Shown: piece by piece, positions 12,041 to 17,755 of the stretch
Layout of the letters: every line of letters starts with the position of its first letter
Position numbering within the stretch: position 1 is the stretch's first letter
NCBI GenBank assembly: GCA_918797485.1
Contig: CAKKNE010000005.1
Span: 1,922,001-1,986,000 of the forward strand
Reading direction: 5' to 3'
Source: Pelagomonas calceolata
Taxonomy: Eukaryota
DNA: 64,000 bases
Translations under genes and position numbers: made by a program
Notes under the pieces: generated by a model
Database searches by the model: none
What the model was told of the DNA's origin: nothing
The model's input: only the letters and a program-made list of their open reading frames with translations

Positions 12041-14668
12041 ATGGCTTCTGTAGCGCCAGAAGCAGGCGAGCTGGCGCCGGAAGGCAAGCTGGCGCCGGAG
12101 ACGAAACGACCGTGGAAGCTCTGCAGCGAGACCATGCATGTCAAGGTCATCGTGGTCGTTATGACGGTCGTCATGGCGGCGTTCGAGGTCGGCGACCGCA
12201 TGCTTGTGGTCGACTTCGTCGTCTCCTTCTTCACGGTCGTGTCGCTGGATCTCTTCGAGCGGGTCGGGGAAGGGGGCGCGATCCTGGGCGTGCTCCTGGC
12301 GGTGTCTTGTGTGGCCGCGGTAGTCTGGGGGTCGCGGAAGATCGAAGCCATGGAGGCCCACGCCGTCCTGTTCGACGACGCGTCCAAGAAAATCTTAGGC
12401 GAGGCAACGATCGGGCCGCCAAGTCTCAAGGCGCCCGACTTGCGGCAGGCATCCGATGATATCGACGAGCTCATGGGCGCCGCCGCCGCGGTCTTTCCAG
12501 CGTTCAAGACGGAGGTACTGCAGCGTCTCGTGGCGGACGGCTCGCGCTACGAATGCAACCTGAAGACGCGGGAGCGCGTGCGCGAGAAGGTCAAGATTGA
12601 GTACAACGGCGATGCGGCAAAGATCAAGGATTTATGCCGCGGTTTAGTCGTCGCGGAGACGCTGCCGGCGCTGGAAGCCTCGTGTGCCGCGCTCCAAAAG
12701 CTGGACAACGTCGAGATCCTGCAGGTCAAGAACCGGCTCCGCGATCCGCCGGAGGGCGACGGGCCCACCGCGAGCGGCTATCGCGACCTGAACGTCAACA
12801 TTCGCTTCCAAGGGCATATATGCGAGGTCCAGATCATCCACAGCGAGTTACTGAAGCTTAAAACGAACCAGGCTCCTGTCTACAACTTGGTACGGTCCCT
12901 GGGCCTCGTCGGACCGCTCCCCGCCACGACGGCGCCAGAGACGCGCCGCCGGCCTCCAAAGCGCACGAGGGCGGCGCTGGCAGTGCTCCGAATCTTCATG
13001 GCGCGGTTCGCCGCGGCGCAAGGCATGAACTACGTGACGAATGGCTATGGGACAGACGTGGGACTTGCCAACGCGGGCCAGGTGCTGCTGCGGACGATGA
13101 CGGCGCCGGGGTTGGTTTATGCCGCAGTGATGGCGCCGCCGTATTTTTTCTGCGCGTTCCTACTTCTCCGTGATCTCCTCGCGCAGTTCGATTCGACGCG
13201 CTGGCGCGTCGCCGCCGTCGCGGCGGTCTGGGTCCTGCAATTTGCCAGTGAGTCCGGCTTGGCGCTTTACACAGCCATGCAAAACCTCGCGGACGGCTCG
13301 CCCCTTGCGCTTATCTTCGCGGCGCTATATATCTTCGGGTGTGTTTTCGTCGTCCCGTGCCTAGCGGCAGCAGCGGCCGTCTCGCTGCGCCGCAGGGGCC
13401 GGAAAATGCACGTGTCCCGGGTGGCACTCCTGTACCAAAAATATCTTGGATTGCGAGGCTTATATTATCGCTGGAAGATCTTGGGGCTCCAATATGCGAC
13501 GGTCATACTGCAGGCGTTTGCAAAGCTCCCCGAAATGGGCGCGCTCGTGTCGACCCAATCGCATTTCGGGGACAACGCTGTCGTCGACCTTAAAGGCGCG
13601 CCATCGCCGCCAGCCTACTGGTTCTTCTTCATCATGCTCGCCATCAACAGCCTTTATCCGGGTGCCCTGTACTACTATGCGGCGCGCTCCTCGTCCCGCG
13701 ACGCGGACACCGTGGCGGCCCTCTGCGACGTGACGCTCGACCTCTCATATTCCATGGGCTGGGTATTCGTGACCAAGCAGTTCTTTCGTCTCTGCCGCTG
13801 GACGCCCGTCGAGGTCTTCCAAACCCTTGGGCTCTTCACGCCGTGCGTACACCTCCTCTTCACGTGTAGGGCGGTCGAGGCGGCGGCGGCGGACCAGAAG
13901 ACTCCAACGACGGCGAAGCAACCGTCGAAAAAGGCGTGCGCCAGCCACGCACTGCTCTCTGTCGCCACGCTGGCGGTGATTATGGTCGCGTCCTGCCGGG
14001 ACAGGTATCCTTTCAAGGCGGAGAGCCGCTGCAACCCATGCGAGTGCGAAGGATCGGTCCTCACGTCGTGCAAATTAGCGGGCGTGGCGCGGGTCTGGAG
14101 CCTGGACCTGAGCGACAAGGACATCACGGAGGTGCGGTCCGACGCGTTCAAAGACATAAAGTACACGCTCCTCAACGTGTGGCTGGACGACAATAAAGGA
14201 TTGATGTCACTCCCACCCGACGTCTTCGACGAGCTGGACGTCCTGATGAACCTCTCGCTCATGCGCACGGGCGTCACGGAATTACCGAGCCTCGCGGGGA
14301 AAAAGTACTTTGAGAACCTTTTCCTCGACGGCATGAACATCTCGTCCATACCGGGCGACACACTCGCTGGTTCGCGGCTGCGTTTCGTCCATGCCACGAA
14401 TATGCCGAATTTCCAGCTCGACGCCGCCACGTTCGCCAGGACGAGGCAACTCGAGGCCGTCTGGATCGGCGGCTCAAATACGAACTGCGTCGAGCTCCCG
14501 CACGAGGCTGCATGCGTCGACCACCGGTGCCGCTTCATCGAGGAGCTCGACGCCGAATACTTCATCTACCGCGAATTCCAAAAGGACACCTGCGAGGCGT
14601 CCTACGATGGCGCGCCGGGCTGCGGCGAAATACCGTGCCTGCCGCGCTCGTGCTTCGTTCCGTCGTAG
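12041..14668 (+). CDS. RelA/SpoT-like synthetase domain + multi-TM + LRR protein, copy 1
   Basis: NLKTRERVREK, IKDLCRG, KNR...SGYRDLNVN and CEVQI motifs; many hydrophobic helices; CNPCEC cap and LxLxxN/M LRR repeats. Confidence 0.8.
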   Translation: MASVAPEAGELAPEGKLAPETKRPWKLCSETMHVKVIVVVMTVVMAAFEVGDRMLVVDFVVSFFTVVSLDLFERVGEGGAILGVLLAVSCVAAVVWGSRKIEAMEAHAVLFDDASKKILGEATIGPPSLKAPDLRQASDDIDELMGAAAAVFPAFKTEVLQRLVADGSRYECNLKTRERVREKVKIEYNGDAAKIKDLCRGLVVAETLPALEASCAALQKLDNVEILQVKNRLRDPPEGDGPTASGYRDLNVNIRFQGHICEVQIIHSELLKLKTNQAPVYNLVRSLGLVGPLPATTAPETRRRPPKRTRAALAVLRIFMARFAAAQGMNYVTNGYGTDVGLANAGQVLLRTMTAPGLVYAAVMAPPYFFCAFLLLRDLLAQFDSTRWRVAAVAAVWVLQFASESGLALYTAMQNLADGSPLALIFAALYIFGCVFVVPCLAAAAAVSLRRRGRKMHVSRVALLYQKYLGLRGLYYRWKILGLQYATVILQAFAKLPEMGALVSTQSHFGDNAVVDLKGAPSPPAYWFFFIMLAINSLYPGALYYYAARSSSRDADTVAALCDVTLDLSYSMGWVFVTKQFFRLCRWTPVEVFQTLGLFTPCVHLLFTCRAVEAAAADQKTPTTAKQPSKKACASHALLSVATLAVIMVASCRDRYPFKAESRCNPCECEGSVLTSCKLAGVARVWSLDLSDKDITEVRSDAFKDIKYTLLNVWLDDNKGLMSLPPDVFDELDVLMNLSLMRTGVTELPSLAGKKYFENLFLDGMNISSIPGDTLAGSRLRFVHATNMPNFQLDAATFARTRQLEAVWIGGSNTNCVELPHEAACVDHRCRFIEELDAEYFIYREFQKDTCEASYDGAPGCGEIPCLPRSCFVPS

Positions 14669-17755: not shown

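What the first reader, a model, noticed from the sequence alone, without database searches (positions are those of the whole stretch)
12041..17755. Candidate alarmone-signalling receptor: RelA/SpoT-type synthetase fused to a multi-pass membrane region and an LRR domain, in two tandem copies
Seen: both intronless genes encode ~3 N-terminal hydrophobic helices, then a domain (about 12540-12900 and 15620-15990) with NLKTRERVREK / IKDLCRG / KNR...SGYRDLNVN / CEVQI. About 8-9 more TM helices follow, then a CxPCxC cap, ~5 leucine-rich repeats and a Cys-rich tail. Established: those four blocks match the order and spacing of the Syn1-Syn4 motifs of RelA/SpoT-family (small alarmone synthetase-type) pyrophosphotransferases, including the catalytic Asp and Glu. 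Cys-capped LRRs are typical of extracellular ligand-binding domains. Characterised algal/plant RSHs are plastid enzymes, and no plastid presequence is evident here. Inference: a surface receptor whose cytosolic output is (p)ppGpp, (p)ppApp or tRNA pyrophosphorylation, perhaps innate immunity against viruses or bacteria. I know of no characterised protein with this architecture.
Basis: partly seen in the sequence, partly recalled or inferred. Interest (0 to 1): 0.92.

Follow-up and report, generated by a model that had tools for sequence, protein, structure and literature searches.

The report
Algal membrane receptor with alarmone enzyme
Two neighbouring, transcribed genes of a eukaryotic microbe each join a bacterial-toxin-type "alarmone" enzyme domain to about twelve predicted membrane helices and a leucine-rich-repeat domain, and likely act as surface receptors that would make an alarm nucleotide inside the cell when something binds outside, a signalling route I found no description of in eukaryotes.

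Summary
Observation confirmed. ORFs 12041-14668 (875 aa) and 15116-17755 (879 aa) are unbroken, sense-transcribed in poly(A) reads without splice joints, and truly duplicated. Residues 124-291 fold as a RelA/SpoT synthetase, specifically of the Tas1/Apk1 bacterial-toxin type (family-only profile vs Tas1 E 2.7e-8; D-x-x-R spacing), not the canonical plastid/RelA type. A confident model gives 3 + 9 membrane helices and a Cys-capped LRR. Charge bias puts the enzyme in the cytosol and the LRR outside in 24 of 24 aligned members, though the three N-terminal helices fit this imperfectly. The fusion is an old family: 60 domains form one branch, 23-33% identical over full length, nine catalytic residues intact in 45 of 51, with exchanged LRR types. 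The two copies share enzyme (97%) but differ in predicted outer loops (62%). Best reading (0.6): ligand-gated receptor that makes (p)ppApp-type nucleotides; product, ligand and immune role are untested. Precedents: bacterial toxSAS/CapRel, predicted fungal NLRs with RelA_SpoT. No paper on this architecture found in ten searches.

The parts
12041..14668 (+). Copy 1 gene, 875 aa (P0001), intronless
12128..12331 (+). Copy 1 N-terminal helices TM1-3 (aa 30-97); TM1 ends in a conserved M..E/D; TM3 runs on as one long helix to aa 119, towards the enzyme
12410..12913 (+). Copy 1 Tas1/Apk1-type RelA/SpoT synthetase domain (aa 124-291): K175 R179 K183 D197 R200 K230 Y247 N251 E262 Q264
12959..13993 (+). 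Copy 1 nine predicted membrane helices TM4-12 (aa 307-651) plus a short interfacial helix 460-468
14030..14527 (+). Copy 1 CNPCEC..C cap and six LRR strands (aa 664-829), two N-glycosylation sequons
14528..14665 (+). Copy 1 Cys-rich tail (aa 830-875), low model confidence
15116..17755 (+). Copy 2 gene, 879 aa (P0002), intronless, 82% identical to copy 1; transcript ends near 17909
15203..15406 (+). Copy 2 TM1-3, identical in protein to copy 1 (likely recent gene conversion)
15488..16000 (+). Copy 2 synthetase domain (aa 125-295), 171 of 176 residues identical to copy 1
16046..17080 (+). Copy 2 TM4-12, by alignment to the copy 1 model
17117..17752 (+). Copy 2 Cys cap, LRRs and Cys-rich tail

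Best explanation
Each gene encodes one multi-pass membrane protein with a Tas1-type alarmone-synthetase domain and a C-terminal LRR domain, and it likely works as a ligand-gated receptor-enzyme whose predicted outer LRR and loops bind a cue and whose predicted cytosolic enzyme would then make (p)ppApp-type nucleotides. SHOWN: single transcribed ORFs, RSH fold, intact catalytic set under purifying selection, LRR fold, one fused family with exchanged LRR types. PREDICTED: 3+9 helices, enzyme inside and LRR outside. INFERRED: (1) the enzyme is held off at rest, because the genes are transcribed in ordinary cultures, Tas1-type enzymes drain ATP, and no immunity-like gene is adjacent; (2) binding at the LRR/outer loops is relayed through the helix bundle to the two helices that tie the enzyme to the membrane (TM3 extension 98-119; C-terminal helix 268-291 with family-conserved Y281, R285, G291); (3) the enzyme moves pyrophosphate from ATP to a ribose 3'-OH; my odds for the acceptor: adenosine nucleotides about 50%, guanosine or both about 30%, RNA or other about 20%; (4) the output is growth arrest or death on non-self recognition (about half) or a low-level second messenger for another cue.
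For: Enzyme: top PDB sequence hit Tas1 (E 5.6e-4 single; 2.7e-8 with a profile of 35 family-only domains, SaSAS next at 0.45, no canonical RSH under E 5; 3.4e-22 with the wider profile). Apk1 active-site residues R330, N370, E382 named in PMC12691689 align with R200, N251, E262. SaEAS D121/R124 and Tas1 show D-x-x-R as here; FaRel2 has D90/G93/R95, RelP D-I-A-G-I-R. All nine tested residues intact in 45 of 51 spanning family domains. dN 0.018 vs dS 0.209 between copies in the domain. Topology: model pLDDT 81.6, pTM 0.78; K/R density alternates 0.14-0.20 / 0.04-0.06 over eight successive loops; enzyme-side loops richer in K/R in 24 of 24 rows (rows are related, two margins are tiny); P0158 lacks exactly the TM6-7 pair, keeping an odd count; loop 8-9 aligns together with the LRR in structural matches. 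Sensor: family LRR profile hits secreted/surface LRR proteins (ALS, LRRC15, LGR4, TLRs); sequons 0.82 vs 0.26 per 100 aa in LRR vs enzyme. Repertoire logic: one branch of 60 domains (SH-like 100); the membrane parts occur only in that branch (28, 26, 22 hits, 0 outside among the top 150); C-ends are typical, RI-type, plant-type or mucin-tailed LRRs; copies are 86% identical in inner loops, 62% in outer loops.
Against: No activity data. N-terminal topology conflicts: the tail before TM1 is basic (K/R 0.23) and both short loops are acidic, which fits N-in; three full helices from N-in would put the enzyme outside. The stretch right after TM12 is also basic (0.15). I could not read the model's coordinates to check sidedness. 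P0039 lacks three helices (even count), and P0039, P0040, P0049 carry RI-type LRRs, usually cytosolic (recalled). Residues nearly fixed in other Tas1-like domains are relaxed in the family (R248 34 of 57 vs 104 of 107; N253 27 of 57 vs 89 of 107; H278 35 of 53 vs 97 of 107, Ala in both window copies), and Apk1 K353 is not in register, so acceptor or rate may differ. By structure Z, RelQ (13.9) ties or beats Tas1 (12.6). Apk1-like relatives make ppGpp only (VpEAS) or both (SaEAS). No dN/dS above 1 in any 40-codon window; only two copies in the window; transcription looks constitutive in 4 runs of one sample. The helix bundle has no identified fold.
Confidence: 0.6

Rival explanations
1. Same receptor logic, but the acceptor is an RNA 3' end (tRNA-CCA, as in CapRel/FaRel2) or another hydroxyl, shutting down translation.
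For: Relaxed R248/N253/H278 in the family; tRNA-modifying toxSAS have a smaller basic patch at the acceptor site (PMC11782079); CapRel matches the model at Z 11.9.
Against: Sequence profile hits Tas1 and SaSAS, not CapRel/FaRel2; motif spacing differs from FaRel2; both window copies keep R248 and N253.
Confidence: 0.12
2. A transporter, channel or scaffold whose RSH domain binds nucleotides or works constitutively at low rate; the LRR is accessory and gates nothing.
For: Twelve helices with conserved polar residues (E49, R460, Q491, N536, D563); constitutive transcripts; weak features-only likeness (0.80, lead only) to oomycete TM-LRR proteins of unknown function.
Against: Full catalytic set kept in 45 of 51; helix count varies by hairpin loss and large inserts; every complete member inspected ends in an LRR module; no transporter among listed fold hits, though those lists were filled by other domains.
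Confidence: 0.12
3. Reverse orientation: the enzyme faces outside or an endosome/phagosome lumen as a membrane-tethered antibacterial or nucleotide-degrading toxin, like exported alarmone synthetases.
For: Basic N-tail with three helices would place the enzyme outside; nearest characterised relatives are exported enzymes.
Against: It would put four K/R-rich loops outside and the Cys-capped, sequon-bearing LRR inside.
Confidence: 0.08
4. A plastid (p)ppGpp synthetase of the plant/algal RSH kind, anchored in a plastid membrane.
For: Characterised algal RSHs are plastid enzymes prone to domain gain (PMC6881373); an internal Met32..AAF resembles a signal-plus-Phe motif (recalled pattern).
Against: No hydrolase, TGS or ACT part; Tas1-type motifs; Met32 is Thr in the syntenic relative; acidic residues follow the Phe; helix 1 is internal in relatives.
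Confidence: 0.04

Closest known systems
Tas1/Apk1 (Pseudomonas T6SS (p)ppApp synthetase, PDB 6ox6) and SaEAS (8vx3)
   Same: Closest characterised enzyme domain by sequence; same D-x-x-R Syn2, same K-xxx-R-xxx-K Syn1 (Tas1), R/N/E/Q active-site residues.
   Different: Those are exported bacterial toxins with PAAR or signal peptides and (Tas1) an immunity protein; here the domain is internal in a eukaryotic multi-pass protein with an LRR and no adjacent immunity gene.
CapRel (fused sensor-toxSAS phage defence)
   Same: One chain holding a sensor and an RSH toxin domain switched on by non-self (PMC11782079); shared fold, Z 11.9.
   Different: Soluble, bacterial, pseudo-zinc-finger sensor, tRNA acceptor, canonical motif spacing; no membrane bundle or LRR.
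Fungal NLRs with RelA_SpoT N-terminal domain (RelA_SpoT-NACHT-WD40)
   Same: Eukaryotic repeat-sensor protein with a predicted RSH effector (PMC4986451 Tables 1-2).
   Different: Cytosolic STAND ATPases, no LRR, no membrane; annotation only, and a later preprint found no cluster matching the profile with enough coverage. Kinship of their RSH domain to this one not tested.
Plant/algal plastid RSH1, RSH2/3, RSH4
   Same: Eukaryotic RSH synthetase domains with acquired regulatory domains.
   Different: Plastid-targeted, hydrolase-synthetase layout, canonical motifs, ppGpp; no 12-helix/LRR architecture in the passages read.
LRR receptor-enzymes and LRR-GPCRs (LRR-RK, TLR, LGR); oomycete multi-TM LRR/WLGC proteins
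   Same: Cys-capped typical LRR ectodomain; Atlas features point to oomycete TM-LRR clusters (0.79-0.81).
   Different: LRR is C-terminal behind nine helices, output is a pyrophosphotransferase; homology to the oomycete family is a lead (score under 0.9) plus my recall of a similar FGxxGxxF motif, not an alignment.
Guillardia theta 'RelA/SpoT domain-containing' proteins (P0056, P0098)
   Same: Algal proteins with hydrophobic helices and Tas1-like domains.
   Different: Two C-terminal enzyme domains, different branch, none of the three membrane parts; uncharacterised.

Membership tests
RelA/SpoT (RSH) synthetase domain | SYNTH fold | tested here: met
RelA/SpoT (RSH) synthetase domain | Catalytic Asp, Glu, Gln, acceptor Tyr and basic donor-site residues | tested here: met
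   D197, E262, Q264, Y247, K175, R179, K183, R200
RelA/SpoT (RSH) synthetase domain | Pfam RelA_SpoT above the curated cut-off | tested here: not met
   12.7 bits vs 27 for copy 1, none for copy 2; 2 of 24 members at E<=0.05. Divergence, not absence of fold.
RelA/SpoT (RSH) synthetase domain | Pyrophosphate transfer from ATP to a ribose 3'-OH | not testable with these tools
   needs assay
Tas1/Apk1-like synthetases | Closer by sequence to Tas1 than to RelP/RelQ/Rel; D-x-x-R spacing | tested here: met
   structure Z does not separate them
Tas1/Apk1-like synthetases | PAAR/MuF/signal-peptide export module and adjacent immunity gene (Apk1/Apk2/EAS proper) | tested here: not met
   none in the ORFs; neighbours are a PALP enzyme and a transposon-like element
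Tas1/Apk1-like synthetases | (p)ppApp as product | not testable with these tools
   relatives differ in product
Plastid RSH1/2/3/4 | Hydrolase(-like) domain before the synthetase, canonical motifs, plastid presequence | tested here: not met
   (no dedicated targeting predictor was available)
tRNA-pyrophosphorylating toxSAS (CapRel/FaRel2) | R-x-K-xxx-S and D-x-x-G-x-R motifs; pZFD antitoxin | tested here: not met
Surface LRR receptor-enzyme | LRR fold with N-terminal Cys cap | tested here: met
Surface LRR receptor-enzyme | Sensor and enzyme on opposite membrane faces, enzyme cytosolic | tested here: inconclusive
   supported by 9 helices and K/R alternation; N-terminal helices conflict; prediction only
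Surface LRR receptor-enzyme | Plasma-membrane location and ligand-gated activity | not testable with these tools
   needs cell biology
NLR/STAND | NACHT or NB-ARC domain | tested here: not met
   no such Pfam hit in 24 members
Oomycete multi-TM LRR/WLGC proteins | Homologous membrane core | tested here: inconclusive
   Atlas score 0.80, no alignment; core-only query not answered

The most novel reading that the evidence does not exclude
Marine eukaryotes domesticated a bacterial Tas1-type toxin domain as the output of a diversified family of surface pattern receptors: an LRR outside detects a virus, bacterium or grazer cue and a cytosolic enzyme makes (p)ppApp, giving eukaryotes an alarmone-based immune or signalling pathway outside the plastid, a membrane-spanning counterpart of CapRel.
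Probability: 0.3. Interest if true: 0.93.

Novelty: new variant of a known kind. Interest (0 to 1): 0.78.

Why it matters
Alarmone synthesis in eukaryotes is described for plastids, and (p)ppApp synthetases for bacterial conflict; the recent Apk1 census searched bacteria only. An expressed, conserved receptor family with this enzyme would add a nucleotide messenger to eukaryotic surface signalling, offer a candidate non-self receptor in marine algae, and is directly testable: the 200-residue domain models well, and assays and hydrolase controls for toxSAS exist.

Tried and rejected
Assembly artefact for the duplication: rejected by 2x depth of the shared 5' contig and by separate field alleles of both copies. 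Split gene or introns: rejected. Other copies in the window: none. Word-based homolog searches found only close relatives (6, 8 and 14 proteins); the depth came from the HMMER search (1198 hits at E<=1e-3, best 150 examined). Viral contigs: 0 of 53 pattern matches confirmed, a close-relative search only. Prokaryotic genomes were not scanned (not run), so absence of the fusion from bacteria is not shown. PADLOC: 0 hits for 6 proteins. NCBIfam: only weak XopAD/PRK09169 domain-level hits. Fold searches with the full model were filled by the enzyme and the LRR; the helix bundle was not folded alone, so it is untested. ESM Atlas answered once. Positive selection between the copies: not found. Earlier scan findings: none by sequence or words. 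Literature: ten searches; the two all-term searches for RSH+LRR+receptor gave 0 papers; subscription journals are not covered; supplements (Table S2 of PMC6881373, homolog lists of PMC12691689) were not read and could list such proteins. The original Tas1 paper was not available. Complex prediction was not used: no binding claim is made.
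Full report
The genes. Two + strand ORFs, 12041-14668 (875 aa) and 15116-17755 (879 aa), 82% identical. 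The window is eukaryotic: IFT144/WDR19, enolase, spliced GT-AG and GC-AG introns in a neighbouring gene. I did not determine the taxon. Four stranded poly(A) runs (one sample, 6-12% of each read) cover every bin of both genes on the sense strand, depth falls to 1-6 between them, and no joint lies inside either. In DNA run X1 the copy-specific contigs have depth 192 and 191 and the shared 5' contig 398, so both copies exist. A syntenic metagenome contig (L001: enolase, exostosin, Mpv17, receptor, IFT144) has one copy, with an in-frame 81-nt GC..AG insertion that looks like an intron, and lacks the PALP gene and the transposon-like element.

The enzyme domain. Pfam barely sees it (E 0.16), but the best PDB sequence hit is Tas1 (E 5.6e-4). 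A HMMER scan of 1.84 billion representatives gave 1198 hits at E<=0.001; I examined the best 150. A 76-row profile hits Tas1 at 3.4e-22, RelP 1.4e-7, SaSAS 1.5e-6, Rel 0.03; because that profile holds bacterial rows I repeated it with 35 family-only rows: Tas1 2.7e-8, SaSAS 0.45, nothing else under E 5. The domain model (pLDDT 92) matches small alarmone synthetases and Rel proteins; by Z, RelQ 13.9 (rmsd 2.5, 136 aligned) and Tas1 12.6 (2.7, 143, 26% identity, the highest listed) are close, so structure proves the superfamily and sequence assigns the subgroup. With a +21 offset that I inferred from the printed alignment, Apk1 R330, N370, E382 (passages of PMC12691689) fall on R200, N251, E262; K353 does not fall on a Lys (Q228; K230 aligns with the Lys of RelP KDY). 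D197-x-x-R200 has the spacing of SaEAS D121/R124 and Tas1, unlike FaRel2 D90/G93/R95 (passages of PMC11782079). Product is open: Apk1 makes (p)ppApp, SaEAS both, VpEAS only (p)ppGpp.

The family. Of the 150 hits, 20 also matched the copy 1 membrane core by phmmer. In a FastTree of 167 domain rows, all 23 rows I had labelled as full-architecture (three of them the window copies and P0005) lie in one 60-row branch with support 100, apart from the 10 bacterial-toxin rows (midpoint root, no bootstrap). Profiles of the three membrane parts hit 28, 26 and 22 of the 150, all in the branch and none outside; 39 of 57 branch members have at least one part, the other 18 being mostly short pieces (profiles were built from branch members, so only the zero outside is independent). 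Distant full-length members are 23-33% identical to copy 1. Nine catalytic positions are intact in 45 of 51 rows that span them; of the 6 misses, 4 include alignment gaps and 2 have only or mostly substitutions. R248, N253, H259 and H278, nearly fixed outside the branch, are relaxed inside it. C-ends differ: typical LRR with GNP..C cap, RI-type (P0039, P0040, P0049), plant-type (P0158), mucin-tailed (P0077). Taxonomy is mostly missing: of 18 distant full-architecture members looked up, one is from EukProt and the rest are unnamed metagenome proteins.

Membrane layout. The full model (62 rows, pLDDT 81.6, pTM 0.78) has helices 24-48, 53-75, 77-119, the enzyme, then 307-340, 357-380, 386-416, 421-451, a short 460-468, 476-505, 523-549, 554-584, 592-617, 630-651, and the LRR. 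Nine helices place enzyme and LRR on opposite faces. K/R per residue across 24 rows: 0.14 before TM4, then 0.06, 0.16, 0.04, 0.20, 0.05, 0.18, 0.06, 0.18, and 0.15 after TM12; the enzyme side is richer in 24 of 24. That makes the enzyme cytosolic and the LRR outer, as the Cys cap, sequons and LRR type suggest. Against: the N-tail is basic and both short loops acidic, so either the N-tail is outside against the rule or one of TM1-2 does not cross; P0039 has an even count; hydropathy alone finds eight helices. The bundle's fold is unidentified; the Atlas points weakly (0.79-0.81, a level shuffled proteins reach a third of the time) to oomycete TM-LRR/WLGC clusters.

Evolution of the pair. Between copies: aa 1-106 100% (dS 0.04), enzyme 97% (dS 0.21, dN 0.018), helices and LRR 63-80% (dS 0.46-0.58). 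Field alleles of copy 1 differ from both window copies at 9 of 83 N-terminal positions where the window copies are identical, and P0174 joins a copy-2 start to a copy-1 body (a metagenome chimera is possible). This fits gene conversion of the output end and divergence of the outer face (inner loops 90 of 105 identical, outer 63 of 102), as expected for receptors with one output and different ligands. It is not proof of an arms race: dN/dS stays under 1.

Mechanism and rivals. I commit to a ligand-gated receptor-enzyme (0.6) with steps marked in Best explanation. Rivals: RNA acceptor (0.12), transporter/scaffold or ungated enzyme (0.12), outward-facing tethered toxin (0.08), plastid RSH (0.04).

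Known and new. Read as passages only: PMC6881373, PMC12691689, PMC10083569, PMC11782079, PMC4986451, PMC3482391 and bioRxiv 10.1101/2022.03.16.484565; no supplements. Sensor-gated RSH exists in bacteria (CapRel) and is predicted in fungal NLRs; Tas1-like domains sit in auto-annotated Guillardia proteins and in TPR or kinase fusions. I found no paper on an RSH-multi-pass-LRR protein in ten searches (listed under Tried and rejected). Verdict: real, not a member of any described family, a new membrane-receptor variant of sensor-gated alarmone synthetases; interest 0.78.

Noticed in passing
window 17920-22238: 4.3-kb element with 37-nt terminal inverted repeats (89% complementary), ORFs 18154-19986 and 20187-22028 (SAP domain), transcribed on both strands and spliced; absent from syntenic L001. 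Likely a DNA transposon directly behind copy 2.
   Followed up: partly
window 11200-11880: Repeat upstream of copy 1; antisense poly(A) reads and contigs from diverged copies elsewhere lay on it.
   Followed up: no
window 14670-14840: AT-rich spacer where all four contig runs disagree with the window by many letters and indels: probably a local consensus error, outside the coding sequence.
   Followed up: no
window 10059-11144: Cysteine-synthase-like PALP gene, not present at this place in L001.
   Followed up: no
L001 7998-10706: Single-copy orthologue with an in-frame, stop-free 81-nt GC..AG insertion, likely an intron.
   Followed up: partly
proteins P0033, P0037, P0056, P0073, P0098, P0102, P0107, P0145: A second group of 1200-1560 aa proteins with hydrophobic helices and two Tas1-like domains; P0056 and P0098 are Guillardia theta, P0107 from MMETSP. 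Possibly another membrane alarmone system in algae.
   Followed up: partly
proteins P0050, P0115, P0084, P0094, P0017: Tas1-like domains fused to TPR repeats, protein kinases or a ResIII-like domain; P0017 is from MMETSP.
   Followed up: no
protein P0151: Family member with a large Cys-rich, multi-helix insertion between TM11 and TM12.
   Followed up: no
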